A stretch of DNA of 64,000 bases from an uncultured Ignavibacteria bacterium (GCA_964593585.1 CAZQIZ010000001.1:64528-128527), one strand, 5' to 3'. Counted from the stretch's first letter, positions 20,422 to 39,000 are shown. A program made the numbers and translations. Notes: a model not told the origin generated them from the sequence alone.

Positions 20422-20448
20422 CGTCAGACTCCTTGATCCTGTCCCGAG

Positions 20449-21804: not shown

Positions 21805-21925
21805 CGGACTATAGTACTCCACATCCGGTCCGGTTGGGTGTCGATTTCCCACCCGCGCGCGGTGTTTTTGACAGGCGGGAAGGCCCGCCGCAAACCGTGA
21901 CAAATCCCCCGCCGCAGTCATACAT

Positions 21926-22780: not shown

Positions 22781-22809
22781 CCCACTTGCCGAAAAGGCAA
22801 TAGGTCAAA

Positions 22810-22827
22810 TTGGACCTATTGGTCCCA
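22810..22827. promoter_or_regulatory. Palindromic operator-like site TTGGACC-TATT-GGTCCCA upstream of the TetR gene (candidate TetR operator).
   Basis: Inverted arms in the intergenic region 22781..22882. Near-identical architecture to the site at 9581..9598. Confidence 0.45.
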
Positions 22828-22882
22828 TTCTTTTGCTCCTCGCCGCAAACAAATCGCGCCCTCGGTCGTATAATTCATACGT

Positions 22883-23500
22883 ATGAGTGAATCGCGCGAC
22901 ACGCGTTCTGCCCTGATTGCCTCCGCTCGCAAGGTCTTCGCGCGGCGCGGCTACCGCGGCGCCTCCATTAAAGCCATCACCGATGACGCCCACGCCAACC
23001 TCGGCGCGGTCACCTACCACTTTGGCACCAAGGAACGTCTCTACCATGAAGTCATCCGACAACTGGTCGGACCGCTGCATCAACATGTACGCGCCGCCAC
23101 GGAAGCCGACGGCACCGCGCTCTCGCGCATCGAGGCCGGCGTCCGCGCCTACTTCCAGTACATGCACACGCACCACGAACTGCCGGCGATGATGCTGCAT
23201 GAGATGTCGCTGACCGGACCGCTCCCCGCGCCGATTCAGGAATCGATCGGCGCGATGATGAAGCACATGTCCGGGCTGGTCGTGCGCGGCCAGGCCGACG
23301 GGGAGATAGTCGAAGGCGATCCGGTGCTGCTGACCGTCAGTTCCATATCACAGCCTTTGTTCTTTGTCATCATGCGCCGGGGCCTGAAGGAAATCGCCGG
23401 GGTCAACATGCACGACCGCGCGACCCAGGAACGGGTGCTGGTTCACCTCTTGGCCTTTGTGCGGCGCGGACTGATGCGCCCGGGGAGTTCGACCCAATGA
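22883..23500 (+). CDS. TetR/AcrR-family transcriptional regulator.
   Basis: HTH 'SARKVFARRGYRGASIKAITDDAHANLGAVTYHFGTKERLY'. Stop overlaps the TolC start. Confidence 0.85.
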   Translation: MSESRDTRSALIASARKVFARRGYRGASIKAITDDAHANLGAVTYHFGTKERLYHEVIRQLVGPLHQHVRAATEADGTALSRIEAGVRAYFQYMHTHHELPAMMLHEMSLTGPLPAPIQESIGAMMKHMSGLVVRGQADGEIVEGDPVLLTVSSISQPLFFVIMRRGLKEIAGVNMHDRATQERVLVHLLAFVRRGLMRPGSSTQ

Positions 23501-24843
23501 CAAACCGACGATTGTGGGCTGTTGCGCATTTGCTGACGCTTCTGGCCCTGGCGATGTACGGGGCACCGGCGGCCGCCGCGTCCCTGCGGCTCTCCGAAGC
23601 GGTCCGTCTGGCGCTGGCGCAACATCCCAGCGTGCGGCAGGCGGAGGCGCAGCTGGCGCAGGCGGAGTCGCGGCTGCGTCAGGCACGCGCCGCCTGGTTC
23701 CCGACACTGCGTCTGGCCGGCTCCCTCTATCAATATGAAGAACCCATGGCGGCCTGGCCGATTCATGGCTTCGACCTGACACGCATCCCGCCCTTCGATG
23801 AGACGCTGATGCAGGGCGGATTGCAGATCGATTACACGCTCTTCGATGGCGGCGCGCGCGAAGCAAGGGTGCGTCAGGCGGGTCGTCTGCGCGACGCCGG
23901 CCAGGCCGCCTTCACCAACGCCGAGCAGCGTCTCATCGCCCGTGTCGTGGCCGCCTATCTGTCGGTGCGCGCCGATGAGGAACTACTCGCCGCGCATCGG
24001 CAGCGACGCGCCGCGGTCGATGCCGAGCGAGATCGCGTCGCGCAGCTCCGCGCCGTCGGACGCGCCGCCGATGTCGATGTGGCGCGCGCCGAGGCGGCGC
24101 TCGCCGGTGCCGACGCCGATTGGGCACAGGCGCAGGCGGCGCTCGAGGTCGCCCGCCGCGATCTGGCCCGTCTGATCGGCGCATCCGCCGACACCCTGAC
24201 GGTCATGCCGGTTGCCGAACCCGCGGCGGCGAAGTCATTGGATTCCATCGGCGCGCTCTCTGAACAAGTCCTCGCACAGAGCGCCGAAGTCGAAAGCGCA
24301 CGCTTGCGGCTGGTGGCAGCCGAAGCCGGACGGTCGGCGGCGCGTGGCGCGCGCTGGCCCTCGGTCAACCTGCGCGGCGCCTGGTCCGATCTGCGCGACG
24401 CCAACGGGCATCGCACCGATGAATGGAACGCCGCCGTGCTGGTCGGGTTGCCGCTGTTCACCGGCGGCGCCGTCGGCGGCGCGATCGCCGAGGCCGACGC
24501 CGGTCGCAACGCTGCCGCCGAGGATTGGCGGCTGGCGCAGGAGCGCGCCGCGGCGCAGTTGGACCAGACCTTGGCGCTTCGTCAGGAGTCGAGGGCCCGT
24601 ATCGCCAGTCTCGAACGCGCCGTGGCCAGTCTCGAGGAAGTCGCCCGCATCGAGCAGTTGCGTCTGTCCACCGGTTCCGACACGCAGGCCGAATATCTGC
24701 GCGCCGAAGCCGATTTGCTTGCCGCACGCGCCGGATTGATCAATGCGCGCCATGCCGCCGTGCAGGCCGATGTCGAACTGGCGCGGCTGCTCGGCGAACT
24801 CGATATGGCCTGGGTCGAACACAACTTGGAGTCCAACCGATGA
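23497..24843 (+). CDS. TolC-family outer-membrane efflux protein.
   Basis: Signal peptide, then two OEP repeats rich in coiled-coil Ala/Arg/Glu. Confidence 0.8.
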   Translation: MTNRRLWAVAHLLTLLALAMYGAPAAAASLRLSEAVRLALAQHPSVRQAEAQLAQAESRLRQARAAWFPTLRLAGSLYQYEEPMAAWPIHGFDLTRIPPFDETLMQGGLQIDYTLFDGGAREARVRQAGRLRDAGQAAFTNAEQRLIARVVAAYLSVRADEELLAAHRQRRAAVDAERDRVAQLRAVGRAADVDVARAEAALAGADADWAQAQAALEVARRDLARLIGASADTLTVMPVAEPAAAKSLDSIGALSEQVLAQSAEVESARLRLVAAEAGRSAARGARWPSVNLRGAWSDLRDANGHRTDEWNAAVLVGLPLFTGGAVGGAIAEADAGRNAAAEDWRLAQERAAAQLDQTLALRQESRARIASLERAVASLEEVARIEQLRLSTGSDTQAEYLRAEADLLAARAGLINARHAAVQADVELARLLGELDMAWVEHNLESNR

Positions 24844-25835
24844 AGCCACCCAAACCCGTCATCATCGTCGCCGTGCTGGCGGCGGCGGCCGCCCTCGTCT
24901 GGTTTCTATTCCTCGCCGGCGATGGCTCGGATCGCACATTGATCATCTCCGGAACCATCGAGGCCACCGAGGCGCGCCTGGGCTTCCAATCGGCCGGACG
25001 CATCGACAGCATCTTTATGCGCGAGGGGGACTCGGTGTACTCCGGCGCAATCCTGGCGGTGCTGGACCGCGTCGAGGCGCTGGCACGGCGTGATCAGGCC
25101 ACCGCCCAGGTGGCCGCGGCGCGGGCGCTGCTGGCCGAGCTGGAGAGTGGATTTCGCCCCGAAGAAGTGGCGCAGGCACGCGCCGCTGCGCAGGGTGCCG
25201 AACAGCAATTCCGCGATGCCGAGCGCGATTTGGCCCGGACACGGACCCTGTTTGAGGGCGGCGCGGTCAGCCAGGAGGCGCTGGACAAGGCGCAGACTCG
25301 CAACGACGTTACCGAAAATCAATGGAAGCAGGCCGCCGAACAGTTGCGGCTTTTGGAACGCGGCCCGCGCGCCGAACGCATCGAGGCGCAGCGCGCGCAA
25401 GTGACGCAGGCCGAGGCGGCGTTGCGGGGGATCGACGCCACGCTCGATCTGATGACAATACGCGCCGCATTCCCCGGCATCGTCACCACCCGCCACCGCG
25501 AACCGGGCGAGATCGTCGCCCCCGGCGCGCCGGTGTTGACCATCATCAACCGCGATGACCGCTGGATCCGTGTCTATGTGCCGGAGAACCGTCTCGGCGC
25601 CCTGCGGCTGGGACAGAGCGCGGCGATCACCACCGACACATATCCCGGCAAGGAGTACCGCGGCGAGGTGACCTACATCGCCCCGGAGGCCGAATTCACA
25701 CCCAAGACGGTGCAGACCACCGAAGAACGGGTGAAGTTGGTGTACGCGGTCAAGGTGCGTGTGCTCGATGACCCTGGCTATGAACTGAAGCCCGGCATGC
25801 CCGCCGATGTCCAGATCGCGTTTGCCCAGCCATGA
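24840..25835 (+). CDS. HlyD-family secretion / membrane fusion protein.
   Basis: 'MKPPKPVIIVAVLAAAAALVWFL' single TM helix. Coiled-coil and beta-barrel regions. ATGA coupling with tolC. Confidence 0.8.
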   Translation: MKPPKPVIIVAVLAAAAALVWFLFLAGDGSDRTLIISGTIEATEARLGFQSAGRIDSIFMREGDSVYSGAILAVLDRVEALARRDQATAQVAAARALLAELESGFRPEEVAQARAAAQGAEQQFRDAERDLARTRTLFEGGAVSQEALDKAQTRNDVTENQWKQAAEQLRLLERGPRAERIEAQRAQVTQAEAALRGIDATLDLMTIRAAFPGIVTTRHREPGEIVAPGAPVLTIINRDDRWIRVYVPENRLGALRLGQSAAITTDTYPGKEYRGEVTYIAPEAEFTPKTVQTTEERVKLVYAVKVRVLDDPGYELKPGMPADVQIAFAQP

Positions 25836-26770
25836 CGCATCCCGAATACGCCATCGAGGCCAGCGGCCTCACCCGACGTTTCGCCGCTCTGACCGCGGTC
25901 GACCATCTGTCGTTTGCGGTCCGTCGCGGCGAACTGTTCGGCTTGGTCGGGCCCGATGGCGCGGGGAAGACCACGATACTGCGCATGTTGGCCGGAGTGA
26001 TGCGTCCCAGCGAAGGCGATGCGCGCATCCTCGGCTTGAGCGTGGCGCACCAGGCCGAAGCGGTCAAGCACCACATCGCCTACATGTCGCAGCGCTTCGG
26101 ACTTTATGCCGATCTGACCGTGCTGCAAAACCTGCACTTTTACGCCGACCTCTACCAAGTGCCGGCCGCCGAGCGCGCCGCGCGTCTGGATCGGCTCTTC
26201 CGATTCTCCAACCTCGGCCCCTTCCGCGACCGTCTGGCCGGGCAACTCTCCGGCGGCATGAAGCAGAAACTGGGGCTGTCGTGCGCGCTGGTCCACCAGC
26301 CCGATGTCTTGCTTCTGGATGAGCCGACCTTCGGCGTCGATCCGGTTTCGCGCCGTGATCTCTGGCTGATCGTGCATGAAATGGTCGCCGAGGGGGTCAC
26401 GGTGGTGGTCAGCACCGCCTACATGGACGAGGCCGAGCGGTTTGACCGGGTTCTGCTGCTGCATCAGGGACGTGTCCTCGATCTCGACACTCCGACCGCG
26501 CTGCCGGCGCGTTTCGGCGGTCTGCTCTATGCCGTCCGGACCGATCGTCTGCGCGAGGCGCAGGAGGCGGCGCGGCAGGCGTCGGGAATCCTTCGCACCG
26601 CGGTTTTCGGCGATGTGCTCCATGTCACCGTCGATCCCGCCCTTGATGCCGCGGCGGTGCGTAATGTGTTCGAGCAGGCCGGCCATACGGTGACCGTGGT
26701 GGATCGCATGGAACCGTCGATGGAAGATGTCTTTATCGACCGGGTTGCCAGGGCGGAGGGCCATGACTGA
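25832..26770 (+). CDS. ABC transporter ATP-binding protein (ABC-2 type).
   Basis: Walker A 'GPDGAGKTT', signature 'LSGGMKQKLGL', Walker B 'LLLDEPTFGVD'. Confidence 0.9.
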   Translation: MTHPEYAIEASGLTRRFAALTAVDHLSFAVRRGELFGLVGPDGAGKTTILRMLAGVMRPSEGDARILGLSVAHQAEAVKHHIAYMSQRFGLYADLTVLQNLHFYADLYQVPAAERAARLDRLFRFSNLGPFRDRLAGQLSGGMKQKLGLSCALVHQPDVLLLDEPTFGVDPVSRRDLWLIVHEMVAEGVTVVVSTAYMDEAERFDRVLLLHQGRVLDLDTPTALPARFGGLLYAVRTDRLREAQEAARQASGILRTAVFGDVLHVTVDPALDAAAVRNVFEQAGHTVTVVDRMEPSMEDVFIDRVARAEGHD

Positions 26771-27701
26771 GACTGTCACCGTCGAGGAACTGTCGCGTTC
26801 CTTCGGCGCGTTTGTTGCCGTCGACCGGGTGAGTTTCACCGTGCGGCAAGGGGAGATCTTCGGATTCCTCGGCCCCAATGGCGCCGGCAAGACCACCATG
26901 ATCAAGATGCTGACCGGCCTTCTGCGGCCGTCGGCGGGGCAGGGGCGGGTTGCCGGCTTCGACATCCGCACCGAGGCCGATGAGATCAAACGCCGCATCG
27001 GGTACATGTCGCAGCTCTTCTCGCTTTACGCCGATCTGACCGTGGAGCAGAACATCGCGTTCTTTTCCGGGCTCTATGGCGTCGAGGGGGAACGGCGGCG
27101 GCAGCGCACCGATTGGGTGATCGAGATGGCCGGCCTGGGCGATCAGCGACGACGTCTCACCGGCGAGCTGCCACTGGGCTGGAAACAGCGCCTGGCCCTG
27201 GGATGCGCCGTATTGCATGAACCGCCGATCCTCTTTCTCGACGAGCCCACTTCGGGAGTCGATCCGATCTCGCGGCGCTCGTTCTGGGACCTGATCAACA
27301 CATTGGCCGCGCGGGGGACCACGGTGTTTGTCAGCACGCACTATATGGAGGAGGCCGAATACTGCCACCGTCTGGCGCTGATGAACCGCGGCCGTCTGAT
27401 CGCGCTGGACACTCCGGCGCGTCTGCGGGCCTCGATGTCCGAGCCGCTTCTGGAGATCGTCACCGATCATGGCGCCGCGGTCGTCGAGGCGATCCGCGAT
27501 CTGCCGGGCGTGATCGAGGCGGGGCTGTTCGGACGCGCCGTGCACGCGGCGGTGGAGAGCGCCGTGACGGTCCGTCCGCGGCTCGAAGCGCGGCTGCGCG
27601 AGCGCGGCCACAACTGGCGCGCCATCAACCCGGTGGCGCCGTCGCTGGAAGATGTCTTCATCGCCAAGGTGCGCCTGGCCGGAGGGGCGCCGACCGACTG
27701 A
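26763..27701 (+). CDS. ABC transporter ATP-binding protein (second ATPase).
   Basis: Walker A 'GPNGAGKTT', signature 'LPLGWKQRLAL', Walker B 'LFLDEPTSGVD'. 8-nt overlap with the upstream ATPase. Confidence 0.9.
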   Translation: MTETVTVEELSRSFGAFVAVDRVSFTVRQGEIFGFLGPNGAGKTTMIKMLTGLLRPSAGQGRVAGFDIRTEADEIKRRIGYMSQLFSLYADLTVEQNIAFFSGLYGVEGERRRQRTDWVIEMAGLGDQRRRLTGELPLGWKQRLALGCAVLHEPPILFLDEPTSGVDPISRRSFWDLINTLAARGTTVFVSTHYMEEAEYCHRLALMNRGRLIALDTPARLRASMSEPLLEIVTDHGAAVVEAIRDLPGVIEAGLFGRAVHAAVESAVTVRPRLEARLRERGHNWRAINPVAPSLEDVFIAKVRLAGGAPTD

Positions 27702-27708
27702 GCGCGCC

Positions 27709-28830
27709 ATGGGTATCAACCGCACGAGACTCTGGGCGATTGCCCGCAAGGAGGTCGCGCAACTGCGCCGCGACCGGCGCAGTCTCATCCTCGCGTTTCT
27801 GCTGCCGGTGACGCTGTTGGTTCTGTTCGGTTACGCGATCACCTGGGATGTCAACGACATCAAGACCGCCGTGGTCGATCAGGACCGTTCGCCGCAGAGC
27901 CGCGAATTGATCGATGCGCTGCGCGCTTCCGGTTACTTCACCATCACCGAGTTTCTCGAGCCCGGCCCAACGGTCGATGAGCGGCTCAACAGCGGCGCGG
28001 CGCAGTTGGTACTGGTGATTCCACCCGACTTCTCCCGCACCCTCGGCACCGGCGTCCCGGCGCAGCTGCAGGCGCTGGTCGATGGCACCGATGCCAACAC
28101 CGCCACCATCATCCTGTCGTACACCGAGGCGATGGTGGCGGGGCTGGCCGGCGAGGTGGCGTTGGAGGGACGGCTCCTCCAGCCGCCGCTGGTGGCCGAG
28201 AGCCGTGTCTGGTACAACGAGGAACTGGTCAGCCGCAACATGATCGTGCCCGGGCTGGTGGCGGTGATCATGATGATCATCGCCGCGATGCTGACCTCGC
28301 TGACCATCGCGCGCGAATGGGAGCGCGGCACGATGGAGCAACTGGTCGCGACCCCGGTCACCCGCGCCGAGGTGGTGATCGGCAAACTGCTGCCGTACCT
28401 GGCAATCGGGCTGATCGATGTGGTCGTCTGTTCGGTTCTGGGCGTCTGGCTCTTCGATGTGCCGTTCCGCGGCAGCCCGTTTTTGCTGATGATCCTGTCG
28501 TTCTTCTTCCTAAGCGGATCGCTCGGGCTGGGGATGTTCATCTCGGCGGTGGCGCACTCGCAGTTGGAAGCGACACAAATGGCGATGATCCTCACCTTCC
28601 TGCCGGCCTACCTCCTGTCGGGTTTCATGTTCGCCATCGACGTCATGCCCACGGCGCTGCGGGCGGTCACCTTCATCGTGCCGGCGCGGTATTTCCTTGT
28701 GGTGACCCGCGGCATCTTTCTCAAGGGCGTGGGCGTGGAGGTGCTGCGGGTGCAGGGGCTGCTCATGATCGCCTTCTCGATCGTTGGATTCATTCTGGCG
28801 GTGCGCATCTTCCGCAAGGAGTTGTCCTGA
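27709..28830 (+). CDS. ABC-2 family transporter permease.
   Basis: N-terminal TM, large periplasmic loop, then 5 TM helices. Typical ABC-2 membrane topology. Confidence 0.8.
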   Translation: MGINRTRLWAIARKEVAQLRRDRRSLILAFLLPVTLLVLFGYAITWDVNDIKTAVVDQDRSPQSRELIDALRASGYFTITEFLEPGPTVDERLNSGAAQLVLVIPPDFSRTLGTGVPAQLQALVDGTDANTATIILSYTEAMVAGLAGEVALEGRLLQPPLVAESRVWYNEELVSRNMIVPGLVAVIMMIIAAMLTSLTIAREWERGTMEQLVATPVTRAEVVIGKLLPYLAIGLIDVVVCSVLGVWLFDVPFRGSPFLLMILSFFFLSGSLGLGMFISAVAHSQLEATQMAMILTFLPAYLLSGFMFAIDVMPTALRAVTFIVPARYFLVVTRGIFLKGVGVEVLRVQGLLMIAFSIVGFILAVRIFRKELS

Positions 28831-29942
28831 TGCGCCGCGACCGTTGGGTGCGTTTGCGGGAACTGGTCCGCAAGGAGTTCCTGCAGATCCGCCGCGATCC
28901 GCGGCTGATGCGGATCATCCTGATTGCGCCGATCTTCCAATTGATCGTGTTCGGCTATGCCGTCTCGACCGATGTGCGACGGACCGCGCTGTTTTTGGTC
29001 GATCTGGACAACACCCAGTCCTCGCGCGCGCTCACCGAGGCCTTCACCTCTTCCGAGTATTCCCGGATCGCGGGCGCCTCCTCACGGCCGGAGGATCTGG
29101 TTTCCGCCCTCGACCATGCCGACGCGATTGTGGGGTTGGAAATCCCGCGCGGTTTCGCCGATGATCTCGCCTCTGGGACCGCGCAAGTGCAGCTGCTCTT
29201 CGATGGCTCCAACTCGAACATGGCGACCATCTCGCGCGGCTACGCCGAGCGGATCATTGGCCAGTTTGCCCGCCGGCACAGCCCCGAAACCGCGCCGCCG
29301 ACGATCGATCTGCGGACCCGTGCCTGGTTCAATCCCGATCTCGAAAGCCGCGACTACAACGTGCCGGGTGTGGTGGCCTTGATCATTCTCCTGGTCGGAA
29401 TGCTCCTGACCTCGCTGGCGGTGGTGCGCGAACGCGAAATCGGCACCCTCGAGCAACTGATGGTCAGTCCGCTCACCTCGATGGAGCTGATCATCGGCAA
29501 GACCATTCCCTTTGCCATCATCGGCCTGATTGATCTGGGACTGGTCACGACCGTCGGCATCCTCTGGTTCGGGATTCCGTTTAACGGCAACCCCATCCTG
29601 CTGATCGTAAGTTGCATGGTCTATCTCCTGCCGACGCTGGGTCTGGGACTTCTGATTTCGACTGTTTCCAAGACTCAGCAGGAAGCGTTCATGCTTAGCT
29701 TCCTGGTCCTGATGCCGGTCATTCTGCTGTCGGGCTTCATGTTTCCGGTCAGCAGCATGCCCGAAATCTTCCAGCAGACGACCCTGCTGAATCCGGTGCG
29801 GCACTTCCTCGAGATCATCCGCGGCATCTTCCTCAAGGGCGCCGGAATCTCGGTGCTCTGGCCGCAGCTGCTCTGGCTGGCGGGGATGGGAATCGCGGTC
29901 ATGGCCCTGGCGGCCTCGCGCTTCCAGAAGACCGCGCGGTAA
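28830..29942 (+). CDS. ABC-2 family transporter permease (second).
   Basis: Paralogous to the preceding permease. Start at the ATG at 28830 overlaps the upstream stop; the 28317 extension is rejected. Confidence 0.8.
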   Translation: MRRDRWVRLRELVRKEFLQIRRDPRLMRIILIAPIFQLIVFGYAVSTDVRRTALFLVDLDNTQSSRALTEAFTSSEYSRIAGASSRPEDLVSALDHADAIVGLEIPRGFADDLASGTAQVQLLFDGSNSNMATISRGYAERIIGQFARRHSPETAPPTIDLRTRAWFNPDLESRDYNVPGVVALIILLVGMLLTSLAVVREREIGTLEQLMVSPLTSMELIIGKTIPFAIIGLIDLGLVTTVGILWFGIPFNGNPILLIVSCMVYLLPTLGLGLLISTVSKTQQEAFMLSFLVLMPVILLSGFMFPVSSMPEIFQQTTLLNPVRHFLEIIRGIFLKGAGISVLWPQLLWLAGMGIAVMALAASRFQKTAR

Positions 29943-29962
29943 TGACGACATCAGGTGTTGTC

Positions 29963-29982
29963 GCCCCCGCGAAAGCGGGGGC
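29963..29982 (+). terminator. GC-rich hairpin after the ABC-2 operon.
   Basis: gcccccgc-gaaa-gcgggggc, a perfect 8-bp stem. Confidence 0.35.
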
Positions 29983-30105
29983 CCAAACCATGGCCGCCGC
30001 GTCTGGATTCCCGCGTGCGCGGGAATAACTAAGGGATGGAATCCTCGTCCCCGCGTCCCTCGGCTTCGCTCGGCATAACACTCCCGAGGACAGGGACTCC
30101 CCGCG

Positions 30106-30142
30106 AATAAAATCCCCCGCCGCGTGGCCGCGGCGGGGGATT
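30106..30142 (-). terminator. Rho-independent terminator of the giant gene 30168..35525.
   Basis: Perfect 14-bp stem aatcccccgccgcg-tggc-cgcggcgggggatt, followed on the minus strand by TTATT. Confidence 0.6.
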
Positions 30143-30167
30143 CTTACAACGTGGTGCGATCGTGGGG

Positions 30168-33100
30168 CTACTTCAGAAGCAGCATCTTCTTCGTTTCGAC
30201 CCGATCGCCCAACTGCAGACGATAGAAGTAGATCCCGCTGGCAAGCATGTTGCCGTGCTCGTCGGTGCCCGTCCAGGTCACATGATGCGCGCCCGGACCC
30301 TGGTACTCGCTGACAAGGGTGGCCACGCGCTGGCCGAGGATGTTGTACACCGCCAGATCGACCTGACCGTCCTTGTGCAACGAGTAGGAGATCACCGTTG
30401 ACGCATTGAACGGGTTCGGGTAGTTCTGGTCGAGACTGTACTCGGCCGGGACCGGTTTGACCAGACTGCCGCCCGTCGACGTCACGATCGGCAGCGTGTC
30501 GCCGCAGTAGATCAGGAAGCGGCATTCATCAAAGCCGGTGTTGATCGCGTCGACGGCGTAGTTGATCGACGCCAGGGACGCGCCGGCGGTGTTCCAACCC
30601 GCCAAGGCGCGATTGGCCAGCTCCAGCAATCCACCCACCGTCTCCGGCAGACCGAGGCTGTCCAGCGCGCTCAAGACCGACACCGGGATGTAGTGCGTCG
30701 ATGTCGGATCATCGAACGTGCCCAGGATGCCGTCGAGGCCCGGATTGAGGACATCGTCCTCGGTTCCATAGAGGCGATCCGGACCGGGGAGAGCATCCTG
30801 CGTGATGAACACCGGGCACAGGTCGAGGTTGGCCAGGGCATCGCAGCAAAGCCGCAGGTTGAGCGCCAGCGTGATCGTCTGGCCCAGCAGGATGTTGCGG
30901 AACTTGCCCTTCTTGTCCACCGGGAGCGTGACCGGCGTCTGGCAAGTCGCCTGGTTGATCATCGCGTCGCCGAGCCCGTCGGGCAAAGCCGAAGCCGTGC
31001 CGCCGGCCGGGAGGCGTTCGATGATGCACATGTAATCGGCCTGCTCAAAGGTGACCGAACGCCCCGGCTTGCCGATCACCAACGGTGTGGCCAGCAAGTC
31101 ATAGACCAGGTCGGTGCGAACCACCCCGTTGAACTTGCCGTTGGGATTGCCGTAGGCGCCCTGCGTCAACGTGCAGAACTCGCGGCTCTGTGTCACCTCG
31201 ACGCAGAAGGTGCAATCGACAGTGTCGCACTCGTCGGCAACGGCAACCGTGAAGCACCAGATCCCCGGCTCCTCATCGGCCAGCCAGGCAAAGTGGCCTT
31301 CGTCGTCGATCGACGGCGTGTTGAACGGCACTGTCGGCGCGCCATCGAGCGTGATCTCGGTGATCGTAACCGCCAGGACCGAATCGTCATCGTCGTGGAA
31401 CACAACCGTGGCGAAGACGCTGTCGCCCACCATCACCGGCAGGGTGTCGGATTGGCATTCGATCGTCGGCGGCGTGTTGATGACAAACGTCACCGTAAAC
31501 GAGTCGCGGCAGGTGTCGCACAACCCGATGCACTCGGTGCCGACCGTGACCGTCTCGGATGCCTCCGGCGTGTAGCACCACAGCGAATCCTCGTCGTTGT
31601 AAGCGCCCGGTCCGAACGCGAGACGGCAGGAGCCAAATTGCGCATACACCGGCAGGCACACTTCCATCGACTCGCAGAGATAGATGGTGGTGTCATCCGG
31701 CACGGTGCAGATCGGCGGCTGCGGGTTGGGGGTGGTGATGAACACGAAGGTTGTGCAGGCCTCGGCGCAGGGCACGTCGGCGCAGATGATCGTATCATAC
31801 AGCGTCAATCCGCGTTCCGTGGTGGTGAAGCTCCACACATTGTCAACGAAGTGCACCAGATCATTGGTGTTGGTGCAGATCACCGAGTCACCTTCCGGAT
31901 CGGTTGTAACCATCTGGAAGGTGTAGTTGAACGGCGGGCACGGCGGCGCGGGGCTCAACGGACGGAAGTCGCAGGAGGGCCCTTCGTTGACCGTGAATGT
32001 GACCTCGAAGGTTCCGCGGCAGGTATTGCCGCAGTCGTCGACGCAGCTGATCGTCACCGCCACCGTCTCATTACCCGTCGGTGTGTAACACCACTGACCG
32101 GCATCAAGCACACCGGGCCCGTCGACCAAGCTGCAAACAACTCCGGGGTCACAGTTGTCGGTTGCCGAGACCGGCAGACAGACCTCGGCCGGGTCGCACT
32201 GGAAGAAGCTGGTGTCAGGCGGCAGGATACAAGCCGGCGGAGTGGTGTCATCGACGGTGATCGTCTGCGTGCAGTCAGTGAAGTTGCCGCAGTCGTCGGT
32301 CGCCCGGTAGGTGCGGGTGATCGTGCCGCCGCACGGATCGGTCAACGGACTGTCGCCCACCCAGCTCACGGTCACATTGCCGCAGTTGTCACGTGCCACG
32401 ACCAACGAGATATCCGGAGCCGGGACATCGTCCGGGCACTGGACACTGACCGGAGGCGGACAGGTGGCGGTCGGCGGCGTGGTGTCATCGACCGTGATCG
32501 TCTGCGTGCAGTCAGTGAAGTTGCCGCAGTCGTCGGTCGCCCGGTAGGTGCGGGTGATCGTGCCGCCGCACGGATCGGTCAACGGACTGTCGCCCACCCA
32601 GCTCACGGTCACATTGCCGCAGTTGTCACGTGCCACGACCAACGAGATATCCGGAGCCGGGACATCGTCCGGGCACTGGACACTGACCGGAGGCGGACAG
32701 GTGGCGGTCGGCGGCGTGGTGTCATCGACCGTGATCGTCTGCGTGCAGTCAGTGAAGTTGCCGCAGTCGTCGGTCGCCCGGTAGGTGCGGGTGATCGTGC
32801 CGCCGCACGGATCGGTCAACGGACTGTCGCCCACCCAGCTCACGGTCACATTGCCGCAGTTGTCACGTGCCACGACCAACGAGATATCCGGAGCCGGGAC
32901 ATCGTCCGGGCACTGGACACTGACCGGAGGCGGACAGGTGGCGGTCGGCGGCGTGGTGTCATCGACCGTGATCGTCTGCGTGCAGTCAGTGAAGTTGCCG
33001 CAGTCGTCGGTCGCCCGATAGGTGCGGGTGATGAACCCGCCGCACGGATCGGTGAGCGGCGTGTCGCCGCGCCATGTTACTGCGACCTCGCTGCAATCAT

Positions 33101-35525
33101 CGGAGGTGATGACCCGCGAGATGTCCGGCGCCGGCACGTCCTCGACGCACTGCACGCTGGTATCCGGCGGGCAGGTGATCGTCGGCGGCGTGCTGTCATC
33201 CAACGTGATCGATTGTTCGCATTGGACTGCATTGCCGCAATAATCGGTCGCCGTCCAGGTGCGGGTGATGGTCATCTCCGCGGCGCAGCGGCCCGGCACG
33301 GTGTCGTCGACGAAGGTGATATCCAACGCGTTGTCGCAGTTGTCGTCGAAGACCGGCGTTCCAAAAGCGACCGTCGCGTCGCAATCAATGGTCGCGTCGA
33401 TCGGGCAGGAGACCACCGCCGGATCGTTTGTGTCGTCGACGGTGATCCATTGCGTGCAATCCGCCGAATTGCCGCAGTCGTCAGTCGCTCGATAGGTGCG
33501 AGTGATATATCCACCGCACGAATCGGTCAGCGGACCGTCGCCCACCCAAGTGATCGTCACTTCGCTGCAGTCATCGGTGGCCGAAACCAGCGAAATGTCC
33601 GGATCGGGCACATCGCCCACGCACTGCACGGCAACCGGCGGCGGGCAGGTGATCGACGGCGGGGTGTTGTCCTGCTTGGTGATCGACTGATCGCAGACCG
33701 CCGTGTTGCCGCAGTCGTCGGTGGCCGTCCAGGTGCGGGTCACGGTCATCTCCGCCGGGCAATCGCCGGGGGTGGTGTCCTGCACGAAGGTCACGGTCAG
33801 GTTTTCGTCGCAATTGTCATCAAACGACGGTGTGCCGAAAACAATCGAAGCGTTGCAGTCGATGGTGGCGTCGACCGGGCACGAAACAACCGTCGGGTCC
33901 ACCGTGTCATTGACCATGACGGTCAGCGAGCACACCGCAATGCAACCGAGGATCGGCTCGGTGACCCGGAGCCGCAGTGTGAAGGGGGCGCCGCATGTCG
34001 CGCCGGCGTCGACGCTGACCGTCCGCTCGTTCGTCGGCCCGGAAATCGTCCCATTGCCGACGATCGACCACTGGTATGCGTAGTTGCCCAAGGGGCCGTC
34101 GTAGCTATTGCCGGTTGACGAAGGACAGACCAGGAGATCCCCGGTGATGGAGCAGGGCGGCGTGGGAATGACGACCAGCTGGACTTCGCAGACAGTCTGT
34201 GTCCGCTCCTGATCGGTCACCGTCACGACGTACGTTCCCGCGTCGGCGGGCGTGGCCCCAAGGATGGTGACACAGGCCTCGGCCGGGCAGGGGCAACCGG
34301 GTCCGGACCAGGTGTAAGTGTATGGCCCGAGACCGCCGGTGACGCTTACGCAGAGACGCGCATCGGCGCCTTCACAGACACGGACAGTATCCGGTGTCGG
34401 GTCGCAAACCAGCGGCGGCGTGCAGACCGTGGCGGCCGACAGCGAACGGTCGGTGTTGCCCAGATTCGGCTCGGGGCAGTTGGACGGGGAGAAGCCCTCC
34501 CAGTCAATCAGACGCATGTGGTATGGCGAGCCGCTGATGTCAGAGGCCGAGCGGGGATCTGCGCCCAATGTGCCGCAGGGAACCGTCACGCCATTGAATT
34601 CGCAGCCCCAGGCATCGCGGCAGGCGATGTGGCCGCCCCACGCAAGGACGACATATTCTTGGCCGGGGTCGATGACCACCACCATGCGCGCTTCTGACTG
34701 GGCCGCGGATAGGTTGCCTTCCTCGCCTTCGACGCATTTGTTGCCGTCCCCCGTTCCCAGCGGGTAATCGGCGTAGTACATGTTCACGATCCGTCCGCCC
34801 CAAATGCGCATCTCGCGCTCGACCGCCGGCAGGGAGTGACAGCAGTTCTCCGGCTGGGTGCCGTTGGGCAGATCGCCGTACGGGTCATCGCACTCCGGGC
34901 AGGGAATCTGATAGGCGTGCGTCCAATCGTTGATCGCGCCGCCGAAGAGCGGAGTGCCGTAGGTCGGATCGGGAAAGAATGGGTCGATGTTGTGATCCCC
35001 GACCGGGAACTCGCAGGTCGAGCCGGGAAGGTGCAGCCGGTTGTAGCTGGTCAGAAAGTCGATCGCATGCGCGCCGCTGTGCTTGATATCGTACCCCAGG
35101 ACCAGACGGATCGAGTCGGTCCCGTCGTAACAGGCCGATGGGATGTTGGAGATTTTCGCGCGATACGGGATCGACCAATGTTCCTCAAGGTGGCCCTGCT
35201 GATCGCCAACGTTGCCATTCTGCCAGTTGGGCTGACCGTTGGTTTCGTCTGGCTTGTCCGCCGACCCATTGCGCAACTGGTCCAGATCGATGGACATGGG
35301 CGCGGCAATCCCGTCGGGTGACAGCACGATCAACGACGGTGGCTCCGGTTCCAGGTCAAGCTGCGCCAGCGCCAATCCGGGCAGAAACAGCACGGCCAGG
35401 ACCGGCAGACACCAGCGCGCCAGTCGACATACACTCTCAGTGCTCATTGTCCTCCTCCTTCGGGGGCAGGAACTTCGTTGGTAACGCGTTGGGGGGTGTC
35501 TTCTCCACGGTATTCCTTGCTCCAA
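30168..35525 (-). CDS. Giant (1785 aa) T9SS-secreted surface protein. Signal peptide, then a conserved unknown N-terminal domain (about 400 aa), an array of HYR/Ig-like repeats (including 3 identical copies), a conserved unknown C-terminal domain (about 450 aa), and a Por/T9SS C-terminal sorting domain.
   Basis: Signal 'LPVLAVLFLPGLALA'. Repeats 'TRTYRATDDCGNFTDCTQTITVDD'. C-terminal 'LDQNYPNPFNASTVISYSL...GIYFYRLQLGDRVETKKMLLLK' (T9SS CTD). Paralogous to 36072..40688. Confidence 0.8.
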   Translation of the reverse strand: MEQGIPWRRHPPTRYQRSSCPRRRRTMSTESVCRLARWCLPVLAVLFLPGLALAQLDLEPEPPSLIVLSPDGIAAPMSIDLDQLRNGSADKPDETNGQPNWQNGNVGDQQGHLEEHWSIPYRAKISNIPSACYDGTDSIRLVLGYDIKHSGAHAIDFLTSYNRLHLPGSTCEFPVGDHNIDPFFPDPTYGTPLFGGAINDWTHAYQIPCPECDDPYGDLPNGTQPENCCHSLPAVEREMRIWGGRIVNMYYADYPLGTGDGNKCVEGEEGNLSAAQSEARMVVVIDPGQEYVVLAWGGHIACRDAWGCEFNGVTVPCGTLGADPRSASDISGSPYHMRLIDWEGFSPSNCPEPNLGNTDRSLSAATVCTPPLVCDPTPDTVRVCEGADARLCVSVTGGLGPYTYTWSGPGCPCPAEACVTILGATPADAGTYVVTVTDQERTQTVCEVQLVVIPTPPCSITGDLLVCPSSTGNSYDGPLGNYAYQWSIVGNGTISGPTNERTVSVDAGATCGAPFTLRLRVTEPILGCIAVCSLTVMVNDTVDPTVVSCPVDATIDCNASIVFGTPSFDDNCDENLTVTFVQDTTPGDCPAEMTVTRTWTATDDCGNTAVCDQSITKQDNTPPSITCPPPVAVQCVGDVPDPDISLVSATDDCSEVTITWVGDGPLTDSCGGYITRTYRATDDCGNSADCTQWITVDDTNDPAVVSCPIDATIDCDATVAFGTPVFDDNCDNALDITFVDDTVPGRCAAEMTITRTWTATDYCGNAVQCEQSITLDDSTPPTITCPPDTSVQCVEDVPAPDISRVITSDDCSEVAVTWRGDTPLTDPCGGFITRTYRATDDCGNFTDCTQTITVDDTTPPTATCPPPVSVQCPDDVPAPDISLVVARDNCGNVTVSWVGDSPLTDPCGGTITRTYRATDDCGNFTDCTQTITVDDTTPPTATCPPPVSVQCPDDVPAPDISLVVARDNCGNVTVSWVGDSPLTDPCGGTITRTYRATDDCGNFTDCTQTITVDDTTPPTATCPPPVSVQCPDDVPAPDISLVVARDNCGNVTVSWVGDSPLTDPCGGTITRTYRATDDCGNFTDCTQTITVDDTTPPACILPPDTSFFQCDPAEVCLPVSATDNCDPGVVCSLVDGPGVLDAGQWCYTPTGNETVAVTISCVDDCGNTCRGTFEVTFTVNEGPSCDFRPLSPAPPCPPFNYTFQMVTTDPEGDSVICTNTNDLVHFVDNVWSFTTTERGLTLYDTIICADVPCAEACTTFVFITTPNPQPPICTVPDDTTIYLCESMEVCLPVYAQFGSCRLAFGPGAYNDEDSLWCYTPEASETVTVGTECIGLCDTCRDSFTVTFVINTPPTIECQSDTLPVMVGDSVFATVVFHDDDDSVLAVTITEITLDGAPTVPFNTPSIDDEGHFAWLADEEPGIWCFTVAVADECDTVDCTFCVEVTQSREFCTLTQGAYGNPNGKFNGVVRTDLVYDLLATPLVIGKPGRSVTFEQADYMCIIERLPAGGTASALPDGLGDAMINQATCQTPVTLPVDKKGKFRNILLGQTITLALNLRLCCDALANLDLCPVFITQDALPGPDRLYGTEDDVLNPGLDGILGTFDDPTSTHYIPVSVLSALDSLGLPETVGGLLELANRALAGWNTAGASLASINYAVDAINTGFDECRFLIYCGDTLPIVTSTGGSLVKPVPAEYSLDQNYPNPFNASTVISYSLHKDGQVDLAVYNILGQRVATLVSEYQGPGAHHVTWTGTDEHGNMLASGIYFYRLQLGDRVETKKMLLLK
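32250..33021. repeat. Tandem array of 237-bp repeats. Three 100% identical copies at 32311..33021, plus diverged copies on to about 33690.
   Basis: The six-frame track shows three identical 78-aa antisense ORFs at 32311, 32548 and 32785. The DNA is identical over 3 x 237 bp and encodes in-frame HYR-like repeats of the giant protein. Confidence 0.9.
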
Positions 35526-36015
35526 ATGGCCGGCTTGATCGCCGCCCGTGAACGCAACGTCTTCGCAGCGTGGTGGAACTCTCGTGACTGATGTTCGAAG
35601 TGCCAGCGACCTCCCTGCTGACGGATCAGAACGACGGCGAAACGGAGACGTCCTTCATGCAATCACAATATGCTTGTGAACCTCGTCACGATACAAGCGT
35701 TGCTGGCAACACCTCAACGACTCCTTGAGTGTAAACGACTCTGACTGTGATTAGTGGAATTAATAGAGGCGGACGGAAGGGATGCCAGCAGAATCTTTTA
35801 GTGCCCGTACGGGCGGTCATATACGACCGCGCGAGGTATAGGTGAGTAATACTATACTAAATACCCAATATCACATGATCGCCCGTTGAATCCGCGCTCT
35901 TGGGGGCGAGGTACCCATCGGCAGACTAACCGCGTAAACGGCTGCGAGTTGATGGGCTGCGGTCGAGGCATGACCGCTGGTGCCATGCGGTAAGAGCGCG
36001 ACAGGAACAAAGAAA

Positions 36016-36046
36016 GTCCCCCACCGCGAACGACGCGGTGGGGGAC
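36016..36046 (-). terminator. Rho-independent terminator of the giant gene 36072..40688.
   Basis: gtcccccaccgcg-aacga-cgcggtgggggac, a perfect 13-bp stem followed on the minus strand by a T-rich tract (tttctttgtt). Confidence 0.6.
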
Positions 36047-36071
36047 AGGCAGAGCGAGTGCATTACAGCGA

Positions 36072-39000
36072 TTACTTCAGCAAGACCATCTTCCGGGTCT
36101 GGACCTGACCGCCGATCTGCAGACGATAGAAGTAGATCCCGCTGGCGATCGTGTTGCCGTTGTCGTCCGCGCCGGTCCAGGTCACCCGGTAGGTGCCGGG
36201 GGCCTGGAAGTCGCTGACCAGGGTGGCCACACGCTGCCCGAGGACGTTGTACACCGCCAGATCGACCTGACCGTCGTGCGCCAGCGAGTAGGAGATCACT
36301 GTCGCGGCGTTGAACGGGTTCGGGTAGTTCTGGTCAAGCGTGTACTCCGACGGCACCGCTTTGGCGAGACTGCCGGTGGTCGACGCGGCCACGGCCGGGA
36401 GCGTTTCGCCGCAGAAGACCACGAAGCGACACTCGTCGAAGCCGCGGTTGATCGCGTCGACGGCATAGTTGATCGTCGACAGCGATGCCCCGCCCGTCGG
36501 CCAGGCCGCGAGCGCGCGATTGGCCAACTCGAGCAGGCCGGCCACGGTCTGCGGCAGACCCAGGGCGTCGAGCGCATCGAGCACCGACTGCGGGATGTAG
36601 AAGATCGCCACCGGATCGTCGAAGGTGCCGAGCGTGTTGTCCGGACCCGGATTCAGGACATCGTCATCGGTGCCCATCAGGCCATCGGAACCCGGCAGCG
36701 CATCGTGCGTCACAAACACCGGGCACAGGCCAAAGGTGCCCAGCTCGGCATCCAGACGCGTGTTCAGCGCCAGGGTGATCGTCTGACCCAGCAGGATGTT
36801 GCGGAACTTGCCCTTCTTGTCGACCGGCAGCGGCGTCGGCGTCTGGCAGGTGGCCGAATTGATCGCCGCGTTGCCCAGCGCGGTCACGAAGGTGTCCGCC
36901 GGTCCGCCCGCGGGCAGACGCTCGATGATGCACATGTAGTCGGTCTGGTCAAAGGTCACCGAACGTCCCGGCTTGCCGATGACCAGCGGACTGGACAGGA
37001 GGTTGAAGATGAGATCGGTGCGGACCACGCCGTTGAACTTGCCCTCGGCGTTGCCGTAGGCGCCCTGCGTGAGACTGCAGAACTCCTCCTCCTGTGTGAC
37101 TTCCACACAGAAGGTGCAGGTGTCGGCCACGCACTCATCGGCCGCCTCGATGGTGAAACACCAGACCCCCGCCTGATCGTCGGCCTGCCATTCGAAATGG
37201 CCGGCGCTGTCGATCGACGGCTCGTTGGCCGGCGTCGTCGGCACGCCGTCGAGGGTCACGCCGATGATCGTCACCGCCAGCGTGGAATCGTCGCCGTCGG
37301 TGATCGGGATGTCGAGCGTGACGCTGTCGCCGGCGGCCACCACCAGCGAATCATCCGGGCAGTCGATCGCCGGCGGCTCGTTGATGATGAAGGCCACCGT
37401 GAACGAGTCGCGGCAGGTGTCGCAGATGCCGACGCACTCGATGCCCACCGTCACCGTGTCGGAGACCTCCGGCGTGTAACACCAGAAGGAATCGACATGG
37501 GTGCCGGGACCGAAGGTGATGCTGCACGAACCGAACTCGGCGAACAACGGCAGGCAGATTTCCGTCGACTCGCACAGGTAGATCGTGGTGTCGTTCGGCG
37601 CGTGGCAGATCGGCGGCTGCGGATTGGGCGTGTTGATGAACACATAGGACGTGCACGCCTCGCCGCAGGGCACATCGGCGCAGATGATCGTGTCCACGAT
37701 CGTTTCGCCGGACCCGGCCGTGTAGCTCCAGACACCGTCGACGAACGAGACATTCGGGTTGGTGTTGACGCACACCACCGAGTCGCCGTCCGGATCGGTC
37801 GTCGTCATCTGGAAGGTGTAGAGGAACGGCGGGCACGGCCCGGGCGGGGCCAGCTCGCCGAACTGGCAGGTCGGCCCCTCGTTGATCTCGAAGGTGACCG
37901 CAAAGGACGACTCACAGGTGTTGCCGCAGTCGTCGGTGCAAACAACCGTGACATTGACCGTCTCATCGCCGGTCGGCGTGTAGCACCACTGGCCATTGGA
38001 CAACGTCCCCGGACCCGCGGTGATGACGCACGACACCGACGGATCGCAGTTGTCGCTGGCGGAGACCGGCAGGCAGACACGCGCCGGGTCGCACTGGGCG
38101 ATGGTCGTGTCGTTCGGCGCCGAACAGATCGGATCGGTCGTATCCTGACGCGTCACCGTCTGCGAGCAGGTGTCGGCGTTGCCGCAGGCATCCATCGCCT
38201 CCCAGGTCCGGGTGTAGCTGGACTCGGCGGCGCAGGCGCCGGGCGCGGCAATCGTCGAAAGGATACGAATCGTCACCTCGGAACAATCATCCGTGGCGAA
38301 CGGCTCACCGAAGGCCAGGACCGCGGCGCAATCGATGGTCGTGTCGGCCGGGCAGCTCAGCACCGGCGCGGTGATGTCCTGCTTGGTGATTGTCCGCGAG
38401 CAGGTGTCGGCATTGCCGCAGGCATCGGTCGCCACCCAGGTGCGGGTGTAGCTGGACTCGGCGGCGCAGGCGCCGGGCGTGGCAATCGTCGACAAAATGC
38501 TGATCGTCACATCTGAGCAGTTGTCGGTCGCCGAGGGCCGGCCAAAGTTCAGATCGGCGGCACAGTCGATGACGGTGTCGGCGGCACAGGTAATCACCGG
38601 CGGGGTGTTATCCTGCTTGGTGATCGTCTGCGAGCAGGTGTCGGCGTTGCCGCAGGCGTCCGTCGCCACCCAGGTGCGGGTGTAGCTGGATTCCGCCGGG
38701 CAGGCGCCGGGTGTGGCGATCGTCGAAAGGACCGAAATCGTAACCTGCGAGCAGTCATCGGTCGCCGATGGCTGGCCGAAATTCACTGCGGCGGCGCAAT
38801 CAATGGTCTGATTGTCCGGGCAGGTAATGACCGGCGGCGTATTGTCCTGGATCCGGATCGATTGATCGCAGGTGACAAAGTTGCCGCAGTCATCGGTCGC
38901 CGTCCATGTGCGGGTCACCGTTTTCTCCGCCGGACAATCGCCGGGCACGGTGTCCTGCGCAACCGTCACGGTCAGCGCGTTGTCGCAGTTGTCGTCAAAC

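What the first reader, a model, noticed from the sequence alone, without database searches (positions are those of the whole stretch)
32250..33021. Three 100% identical 237-bp in-frame tandem repeats inside the giant gene
Identity at the DNA level over 711 bp implies very recent expansion, ongoing recombination (copy-number variation among cells), or an assembly artefact. Each unit encodes exactly one HYR-like module (79 aa), so copy-number change would lengthen or shorten the surface protein without a frameshift. That is a classic contingency or size-variation mechanism. Diverged copies continue to about 33690.
Basis: seen in the sequence. Interest (0 to 1): 0.55.

Follow-up and report, generated by a model that had tools for sequence, protein, structure and literature searches.

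The report
Near-identical domain repeats in surface protein
A bacterial cell-surface protein gene carries three back-to-back copies of one 79-residue Ig-like module, an ordinary way for such proteins to change length. The copies are perfectly identical only in this assembly, and four other assemblies of the same organism differ from it or break apart at this spot.

Summary
The repeat is real in the window. Period-237 self-identity is perfect over 32257..33017 (761 bp, 3.2 units).

It lies on the minus strand in a 1759-aa gene (30168..35447), not in one giant gene. A tandem paralogue sits upstream behind its own terminator-like hairpin. The protein has a signal peptide, seven 79-aa HYR_4C Ig-like modules (33908..32250) and a T9SS type A sorting domain. 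The last three modules are the repeat. The organism is probably a Zixibacteria-like uncultured bacterium.

Four JGI assemblies of the same population match the window at every base of 24.5 kb of flank and differ only inside the array:
- One has three copies that are 97.5-98.7% identical, through six copy-specific SNPs.
- One has two copies.
- Two break inside the array.

At each of those six sites the window carries the 2-of-3 majority base. All three SNP clusters are simple bubbles at k<=55. So the "100%" identity is most likely consensus collapse, though real homogenisation is not excluded. At least three copies are supported in two JGI samples. The 2-versus-3 difference may be real variation or an assembler shortcut.

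This is an ordinary "Periscope-protein"-type array, not a frameshift contingency locus. Interest is low.

The parts
30168..35447 (-). Gene A: 1759-aa secreted or surface protein that contains the repeat. ATG at 35447, preceded by AGGAGGAGG at 35459-35451.
   Evidence: ORF list; upstream sequence; Pfam HYR_4C 136 bits in 7 stretches, plus FlgD_ig and Por_Secre_tail; identical to database protein P0109.
35361..35447 (-). N-terminal signal peptide (MSTESVCRLARWCLPVLAVLFLPGLALAQ).
   Evidence: Read from the translation. A hydrophobic core is followed by ALA-Q. No predictor was run.
32250..33908 (-). Array of seven 79-aa (237-nt) HYR_4C modules. N to C: Y1 33908-33672, X1 33671-33435, Y2 33434-33198, X2 33197-32961, X3 32960-32724, X4 32723-32487, X5 32486-32250.
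   Evidence: Unit parsing and identity matrix; 7 HYR_4C stretches; alignment with six invariant Cys; AlphaFold model of one unit, pLDDT 92.7, all-beta.
32257..33017 (-). Perfectly periodic tract (761 bp = 3.2 units): the finding itself. It includes the last 57 nt of X2.
32349..32938 (-). Span holding the six sites where the JGI assemblies differ from the window: 32938 and 32907 in X3, 32514 in X4, and 32483, 32365 and 32349 in X5. The changes are 3 nonsynonymous (T8I, T2A, S41T) and 3 synonymous.
   Evidence: Ungapped comparison of L001-L004 with the window shows 0 differences outside this span in 24.5 kb.
32961..33037 (-). 3' end of module X2 (unit nt 161-237). It is 93.5% identical to X3, against 69% for the rest of X2, so it is a likely recombination junction or conversion tract.
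   Evidence: Segment identities.
30180..30422 (-). C-terminal T9SS type A sorting domain (aa 1676-1756).
   Evidence: TIGR04183 at 44.1 bits against a cut-off of 23. Pfam Por_Secre_tail, FlgD_ig and CHU_C also hit.
36072..40628 (-). Gene B: upstream tandem paralogue (1518 aa, 58% aa identity to A). It has four HYR_4C modules (Y 39077-38838, then three 234-nt Z units 38837-38136 at 75-79% identity) and its own T9SS sorting domain.
36016..36046 (-). Terminator-like hairpin (13-bp stem, 11 G-C pairs, T-rich tail) 26 nt after the stop codon of gene B. It separates the two genes.

Best explanation
The repeat is a recent in-frame tandem amplification of one 79-aa HYR_4C Ig-like module. The module forms part of the stalk of a T9SS-sorted, adhesin-like surface protein in an uncultured, probably Zixibacteria-like bacterium.

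Shown:
- The unit equals one folded module.
- The array has a layered history: a Y/X split, a 474-nt Y-X pair duplication at about 70-75% identity, X2 to X3 at 77%, then X3/X4/X5.
- The genome carries at least three near-identical copies in two JGI samples.

Inferred:
- New copies arise, and can be lost, by RecA-type unequal recombination or replication slippage between 237-nt units. The junction probably used the conserved 3' end shared by X2 and X3.
- Each event changes the stalk length by one module without a frameshift.
- The PERFECT identity seen in this window is most likely an assembly consensus effect. The organism's copies differ at six positions (97.5-98.7% identity), and the window's assembler replaced each copy-specific base with the majority base (bubble popping at small k, or polishing with multi-mapped reads).
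- The 2-copy contig seen in one assembly is either a real shorter allele or a skipped loop.
For: Module identity:
- Pfam HYR_4C scores 136 bits in 7 stretches.
- All units are 79 aa, with invariant C9, C17, C35, C52, C66 and C72.
- AlphaFold gives pLDDT 92.7 and an all-beta fold.
- The nearest solved folds are bacterial Ig-like, SraP and Rib domains.

Surface targeting:
- TIGR04183 scores above its cut-off.
- A signal peptide is visible in the translation.

Layered duplication:
- The identity matrix and the 474-nt spacing.
- The 3' end of X2 is 93.5% identical to X3, against 69% for the rest of X2.

Consensus effect:
- L001 versus the window over 25,226 bp gives 6 mismatches, all inside the array.
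- The same variants appear wherever the sites are covered: all six in L001 and L002, the four b-sites in L003 and L004, and the two a-sites in L047.
- At each site the window has the base found in 2 of the 3 L001 copies.
- All three SNP clusters are equal-length bubbles at k<=55 and none is at k=127.
- The only copy-specific base the window keeps (32256) abuts unique sequence.
- The contigs from the three assemblies are 219,316, 219,235 and 219,080 bp long, so they end at nearly the same places. That is typical of short-read graphs.

At least three copies:
- L001 has three.
- The first 127 nt of L003 carry a combination that only a middle copy has.
- L047 ends, and L003 and L004 start, inside the array.

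Generality: related HYR_4C arrays with 231-246-nt periods reach 90-100% unit identity in other FCB-group genomes.
Against: - No reads were available, so neither the copy number nor the allele state in the window's own sample was tested directly.
- Recombination between 237-nt repeats is far faster than point mutation. A truly homogenised allele could therefore exist in a sample whose flanks are still identical. A chain of 3-4 unequal crossovers can produce the window's sequence, including the retained 32256 base.
- The assembler and k-mer sizes used for the window are unknown.
- Surface display and a rod-like shape are inferred from domain content, not shown.
Confidence: 0.6

Rival explanations
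1. The three copies really are identical in the window's population. Gene conversion, or contraction followed by re-expansion, homogenised an array that still carries six SNPs in sister populations. The 2-copy contig is a real shorter allele. On this reading the locus is an actively length-variable surface protein undergoing concerted evolution.
For: - Copy number differs between assemblies: 3 in the window and L001, 2 in L002.
- All differences between otherwise identical genomes fall in the array, as expected if repeat recombination outpaces point mutation.
- The 3' end of X2 is homogenised with X3-X5, a footprint of past conversion.
- The paralogue and a sister species also differ in module number: B has 4 units here, and the sister-species B joins to 3.
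- The phenomenon is established for Periscope Proteins (PMC8201768).
Against: - It needs several separate events (loss of variants in X3, at the X4/X5 boundary and inside X5) that happen to restore the majority base at all six sites. One assembler behaviour explains the same result.
- The same SNP-marked allele recurs in four JGI samples, so the dominant allele is stable.
- L002's 2-copy path is exactly the shortcut a graph assembler can take through a 155-nt ambiguous node.
Confidence: 0.3
2. The tandem triplication is itself a mis-assembly. The genome has only one or two copies of the module, and the assembler walked a loop too many times.
For: Short-read graphs cannot count identical 237-nt units from k-mers alone (PMC6868369). 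One assembly gives 2 copies and two assemblies break in the array.
Against: - L001 has three copies, each marked by its own SNPs.
- The L003 contig start holds a consensus-a2 / consensus-b3b4 combination within 127 nt. That combination cannot exist in a 1- or 2-copy genome carrying the other observed variants.
- A copy number above 3 is as possible as one below it.
Confidence: 0.07
3. The periodic DNA serves something other than the minus-strand protein, for example the 1141-aa plus-strand ORF 30693..34118, or a structured or regulatory DNA repeat.
For: A long antisense ORF overlaps the array.
Against: - The minus-strand frame has strong Pfam domains, a signal peptide, a T9SS sorting domain and over 100 homologues.
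- The genome is about 64% G+C, where long antisense ORFs are common.
- The repeat unit coincides with a protein module whose cysteines are conserved.
Confidence: 0.02

Closest known systems
Periscope Proteins (Whelan et al. 2021, PMC8201768): SasG/Aap G5-E repeats, Rib/alpha C of group B streptococci, Sgo_0707 SHIRT repeats, Esp, CdrA
   Same: A surface protein with a tandem array of folded Ig-like modules of more than 50 aa that are nearly identical at the DNA level. Linkers are short and proline-rich (DDTTPPTATCPPP). A distinct N-terminal region and a C-terminal attachment signal are present. Module gain or loss is in frame. The modelled module's nearest solved folds include Rib domains.
   Different: Only three of the seven modules are near-identical, against up to more than 40 in known cases. 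Attachment is through a T9SS C-terminal domain rather than LPXTG or type I secretion. The host is an uncultured environmental bacterium, not a pathogen. Length variation is seen only as disagreement between short-read assemblies. The N-terminal domain has no known function.
HYR / HYR_4C (PF02494 / PF23237) repeat adhesin-like T9SS cargo proteins of Bacteroidota (e.g. Chitinophaga, Brumimicrobium, Flavobacteriales MAGs)
   Same: The same module family and the same C-terminal sorting domain. Arrays have periods of 231-246 nt, some with 90-100% identity between neighbouring units: L028 has 16.7 copies at 97%, and L034 has 33 copies at 88%.
   Different: These proteins are only 31-51% identical to gene A and match it over the repeats. 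No orthologue with the same N-terminal domain was found outside the window's own population and its sister species. Gene A itself is absent from the sister species.
Simple-sequence contingency loci (phase-variable genes of Neisseria, Haemophilus, Campylobacter)
   Same: Repeat-mediated, recombination- or slippage-driven heritable variation in a surface component.
   Different: Contingency loci use 1-8-nt units whose number shifts the reading frame or the promoter spacing and so switches the gene on or off. Here the unit is 237 nt (3 x 79), so no on/off switch is possible and only the length changes.
Repeat collapse or mis-counting in short-read assemblies (Tørresen et al. 2019, PMC6868369)
   Same: The tandem repeat is longer than k and longer than a read. 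Contigs break inside it, copy number differs between assemblies, and copy-specific variants are lost.
   Different: The repeat itself is real. Only its exact copy number and the perfect identity are in doubt.

Membership tests
HYR_4C domain (Pfam PF23237) | Match to the family HMM above the gathering score | tested here: met
   136.2 bits against a cut-off of 27, in 7 stretches in gene A. Gene B scores 60.4 bits in 4 stretches and also matches PF02494 HYR.
HYR_4C domain (Pfam PF23237) | Conserved cysteines in each module of about 75-80 aa | tested here: met
   Alignment of 9 units from genes A and B shows invariant C9, C17, C35, C52, C66 and C72. That is six conserved Cys, at least the four the family name implies.
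HYR_4C domain (Pfam PF23237) | Ig-like beta-sandwich fold | tested here: inconclusive
   The AlphaFold model is confident (pLDDT 92.7) and all-beta with six strands. The best Foldseek PDB hits are bacterial Ig-like (Big_3), SraP, Rib and cadherin domains, but none reaches E<=0.001 (TM 0.5-0.68).
T9SS type A cargo protein | C-terminal sorting domain (TIGR04183 / PF18962) at the extreme C terminus | tested here: met
   TIGR04183 scores 44.1 bits against a cut-off of 23, at aa 1676-1756 of 1759. Pfam Por_Secre_tail scores 24.3 bits, just under its cut-off of 27, and FlgD_ig scores 33.5 bits, above its cut-off of 27.
T9SS type A cargo protein | N-terminal Sec signal peptide | tested here: met
   MSTESVCRLARWCLPVLAVLFLPGLALA/Q was read from the translation. 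This is by inspection only; no predictor was run.
T9SS type A cargo protein | T9SS machinery (SprA/Sov, PorU, PorV, PorK-N) encoded in the same genome | not testable with these tools
   Only 64 kb of the genome is available. The ten large ORFs scanned are efflux, peptidase, kinase and metabolic genes.
Periscope Proteins (PMC8201768) | [quoted passage not shown] | tested here: met
   The units are 79 aa. X3/X4/X5 are 99.6-100% identical in DNA in the window and 97.5-98.7% in L001. The criterion is quoted.
Periscope Proteins (PMC8201768) | Repeat-number variation between closely related strains | tested here: inconclusive
   There are 3 copies in the window and L001, 2 in L002, and contig breaks in L003, L004 and L047. 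All appear to be short-read assemblies, so an assembler shortcut cannot be separated from a real allele.
Periscope Proteins (PMC8201768) | Cell-surface anchoring, with a functional domain projected at the far end of the repeat stalk | tested here: inconclusive
   A C-terminal T9SS sorting domain is present. The N-terminal 350 aa are conserved in the paralogue but match no Pfam family. About 600 further residues lie between the array and the sorting domain.
Periscope Proteins (PMC8201768) | The array forms an elongated rod (termini at opposite ends of the module; short or proline-rich linkers) | not tested
   The linker DDTTPPTATCPPP is short and proline-rich. The geometry of tandem modules was not modelled.
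Simple-sequence contingency (phase-variable) locus | A change in repeat number shifts the reading frame or promoter spacing and switches expression | tested here: not met
   The unit is 237 nt = 79 codons and all seven units are exactly 79 aa. The 2-copy and 3-copy versions both encode full-length proteins, 1680 and 1759 aa.

The most novel reading that the evidence does not exclude
The locus is a genuinely length-variable, concertedly evolving stalk in a T9SS-anchored adhesin of an uncultured Zixibacteria-like bacterium. On this reading the 2-copy, SNP-marked 3-copy and fully homogenised 3-copy alleles coexist in closely related environmental populations. That would extend the Periscope-protein mechanism to T9SS cargo and to free-living candidate phyla. 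It would also show repeat turnover that is faster than any point substitution in 24.5 kb of flank.
Probability: 0.3. Interest if true: 0.35.

Novelty: new member of a known kind. Interest (0 to 1): 0.2.

Why it matters
Biologically, this is one more example of a well-known design: near-identical folded modules in a surface protein that can be gained or lost in frame. It occurs here in a T9SS-sorted protein of a poorly known phylum.

The more useful lesson is practical. Five assemblies of one population agree at every base of the flanks. At this array they give four different answers: perfect triplet, SNP-marked triplet, doublet and break. Copy number and "100% identity" of such repeats in short-read MAGs should therefore not be read as biology without read-level or long-read support.

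Tried and rejected
- Exact look-ups of the window's protein in the contig index found nothing. The related contigs were reached through the members of its 90% cluster instead.
- The metagenome contigs and genome-contig scans with gene A returned only distant relatives (31-51% aa), mostly Bacteroidota. They matched through the HYR_4C repeats. No further same-species or orthologous loci were found, so copy number could not be compared across more genomes.
- Literature searches for 'HYR domain' + 'type IX secretion', for 'Zixibacteria' + 'T9SS', and for the JGI and GenBank sample accessions found nothing.
- Pfam at relaxed thresholds gave no family for the N-terminal 350 aa or for the 630 aa between the array and the sorting domain.
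- Foldseek against the PDB gave only weak Ig-like matches.
- Rejected: one giant gene spanning 30168..40688. A stop codon, a hairpin, a spacer, an RBS and a second signal peptide separate two genes.
- Rejected: the plus-strand ORF 30693..34118 as the coding frame.
- Rejected: a phase-variation (on/off) mechanism.
- No tRNA genes were found in the window. The ten large ORFs scanned in the window gave no T9SS machinery.

Full report
**Observation.**
- Tandem Repeats Finder reports a 237-nt period at 32235..33068 with 3.5 copies and 98% matches.
- A direct lag-237 comparison shows no mismatch for i=32257..32780. The tract 32257..33017 (761 bp, 3.2 units) is therefore perfectly periodic. With one mismatch at 32256 the periodicity reaches 32242.
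- At the window's base composition, 524 consecutive lag matches have a probability of about 10^-298.
- This is the only exact duplication of 40 nt or more in the 64 kb.

**Where it sits.**
- The coding strand is the minus strand.
- The ORF 30168..35525 starts functionally at the ATG at 35447, behind AGGAGGAGG, and encodes 1759 aa.
- It is not part of one giant gene. The upstream ORF (gene B, 36072..40628, 1518 aa) ends with a stop codon. After that come a 13-bp-stem terminator-like hairpin (36046..36016) and a spacer of about 620 nt up to gene A's start codon.
- A and B are tandem paralogues with 58% aa and about 76% DNA identity.
- Both have a signal peptide, an N-terminal region of about 350 aa with no Pfam family, SprB/PKD-like modules, HYR_4C modules (PF23237; 136 bits in 7 stretches in A, 60 bits in 4 stretches in B) and a C-terminal T9SS sorting domain.
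- For gene A, TIGR04183 scores 44.1 bits against a cut-off of 23.
- Neighbouring genes are ordinary chromosomal genes: sdhCAB, an IF-2B-family gene, and ABC-2, RND and TolC efflux genes.
- The best named relatives of SdhA (79-82% aa) are Zixibacteria, so the host is probably an uncultured member of that FCB-group phylum.

**Anatomy of the array.**
- Gene A has seven modules of exactly 79 aa: Y1 X1 Y2 X2 X3 X4 X5, spanning 33908..32250. The diverged copies therefore continue to 33908, not 33690.
- DNA identities are layered: Y versus X about 44%, Y1/Y2 70%, X1/X2 75%, X2/X3 77%, and X3=X4 with X5 differing by 1 nt.
- The 474-nt spacing of families D1 and D2 shows an old duplication of a Y-X pair.
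- The last 77 nt of X2 are 93.5% identical to X3, and the last 57 nt are 100% identical. The rest of X2 is 69% identical to X3. This marks a recombination junction or conversion tract.
- Gene B expanded a different 78-aa Z unit independently, giving three copies at 75-79% identity.
- An alignment of nine units has six invariant cysteines.
- An AlphaFold model of one unit is confident (pLDDT 92.7) and all-beta.
- Its nearest solved folds are bacterial Ig-like, SraP and Rib domains, though none is significant at E<=0.001.

**Other assemblies of the same organism.**
The 90% cluster of gene A has five members.
- P0109 (NCBI, 219,235-bp contig) equals the window's protein.
- P0001 (JGI 3300037465, 219,316-bp contig, locus L001) has three copies that are not identical.
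- P0107 (JGI 3300037501, 219,080-bp contig, L002) has two copies.
- P0106 and P0108 (JGI 3300043243 and 3300043267, L003 and L004) are fragments whose contigs begin inside the array, at window positions 32681 and 32640.

Further points from these loci:
- L001 aligns to the window over 25,226 bp without gaps and with six mismatches. All six lie in the array: 32938, 32907, 32514, 32483, 32365 and 32349. The 24.5 kb of flanks are identical.
- The same variants recur in L002, L003 and L004.
- They comprise three nonsynonymous changes (T8I in X3; T2A and S41T in X5) and three synonymous ones. They make the copies 97.5-98.7% identical.
- A 6,007-bp contig from sample 3300043243 (L047) runs exactly from gene B's array (38789) to gene A's array (32783) and matches L001 perfectly. 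That assembly therefore broke at both arrays.
- L003 is identical to the 3-copy L001 but mismatches the 2-copy L002 at its 12th base.
- Its first 127 nt combine the consensus base at 32670 with consensus bases at 32602 and 32586. Only a middle copy has that combination. At least three copies are therefore supported in two JGI samples without relying on repeat resolution.
- More than three copies cannot be excluded, because extra all-consensus copies add no new k-mers.

**Why the window is "perfect".**
- At each of the six sites the window carries the base present in two of the three L001 copies.
- In the L001 sequence, all three SNP clusters are equal-length bubbles against the other copies at k=21-55. 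None is a bubble at k=127.
- The one copy-specific base the window retains (32256) lies next to unique sequence, so it can never be a bubble.
- The three long contigs end within about 240 bp of each other in length, which suggests short-read graph assemblies with the same break points.
- Bulge removal or multi-mapped polishing would yield exactly the window's sequence. This step is inference, because the assembler is unknown and no reads were available.
- The alternative is a truly homogenised allele produced by unequal crossovers or conversion. It is possible because repeat recombination is much faster than point mutation.
- However, that alternative needs several events that happen to restore the majority base everywhere. 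The SNP-marked allele is also stable across four samples.
- I put consensus collapse at about 0.6 and real homogenisation at about 0.3.
- The 2-copy contig follows the shortcut through a 155-nt node (32906-32752 = 32669-32515) that a 150-nt read cannot span. It too may be either an assembler product or a real allele.

**Relatives.**
- A sister species (GCA_035559435.1; SdhA 95% aa) has only the gene B orthologue between the IF-2B-family gene and the ABC-2 genes.
- Its two contigs break inside gene B's array. If joined by their overlap they give three modules instead of four.
- Scans of metagenome and genome collections found only distant relatives (31-51% aa), mostly Bacteroidota.
- Their HYR_4C arrays have 231-246-nt periods and are often highly similar. 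Examples are a Flavobacteriales MAG with 16.7 copies at 97% (neighbouring units 95-100%) and Cyclobacteriaceae MAGs with 33 copies at 88% and 10-11 copies at 90-91%.
- Near-identical arrays of this module are thus a recurrent feature of the family.

**Mechanism and comparison.**
- The best-supported reading is repeated unequal homologous recombination or slippage between 237-nt units, each event adding or removing one folded module in frame. This lengthens or shortens the extracellular stalk of a T9SS-attached protein.
- This is the Periscope-protein design (PMC8201768). Its criteria are tandem repeats of more than 50 aa at 80% identity or higher, a surface protein, short proline-rich linkers and repeat-number variation.
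- The repeat-length and repeat-identity criteria are met. Strain-level number variation and the projected functional domain remain inconclusive. Rod geometry was not tested.
- It is not a contingency locus in the strict sense, because both the 1680-aa and 1759-aa versions are complete proteins.
- Assembly difficulties with such repeats are well documented (PMC6868369).

**Verdict.**
- The feature is real and the biology is ordinary: a new member of a known kind.
- The striking 100% identity is probably not a property of the organism.
- Copy-number variation is suggested but not demonstrated.
- Interest is about 0.2.

Noticed in passing
window 29942..36072 versus L045/L046 (GCA_035559435.1): Gene A and its upstream spacer have no counterpart in a sister species (SdhA 95% aa). 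There the gene B orthologue is followed directly by the ABC-2 genes. A and B are more diverged (58% aa) than the B orthologues (91-95%). Gene A was therefore probably lost in the sister lineage, or has evolved fast since a duplication.
   Followed up: partly
window 38136..39077 (gene B): Gene B has its own independent expansion: one Y-type module and three 234-nt Z-type HYR_4C modules at 75-79% DNA identity. Short-read contigs break here as well (L046/L045 in the sister species, and the start of L047 at 38789). The sister-species B joins to three modules instead of four.
   Followed up: partly
window 32961..33037: The 3' end of module X2 is 93.5-100% identical to X3-X5, while the rest of X2 is 69% identical. 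This is a footprint of the crossover that seeded the amplification, or of later gene conversion.
   Followed up: partly
window 31128..32249 (gene A aa ~1067-1440): Just after the array lie two Cys-rich modules of about 190 aa, each starting PPxC...C(D/E)xxEVCLPV and ending ...FTVTFxxN. They are followed by a region of about 230 aa. None matches a Pfam family at E<=0.01. All are conserved in gene B.
   Followed up: partly
window 34308..35366 (gene A aa 28-380): The N-terminal region of about 350 aa is conserved between A and B and has no Pfam family. It is the presumed functional head of the protein, with unknown activity.
   Followed up: partly
window 30693..34118 (+): A 1141-aa antisense ORF overlaps gene A. 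It appears to be a shadow ORF of a 64% G+C coding region, not a gene.
   Followed up: partly
L028 8590..12591; L034 14645..22751; L035 16782..23383: Distant relatives in Flavobacteriales and Cyclobacteriaceae MAGs carry much longer HYR_4C arrays (17-33 units of 240-246 nt) with 88-100% identity between neighbours. These are better candidates for length-variable stalks than the window's gene.
   Followed up: partly
window 16283..29941: Downstream of gene A lies a dense efflux cluster: two ABC-2 permeases, two ABC ATPases, a membrane-fusion protein, TolC-like OEPs, a TetR regulator and an AcrB-family pump. It is conserved in order in the sister species.
   Followed up: no
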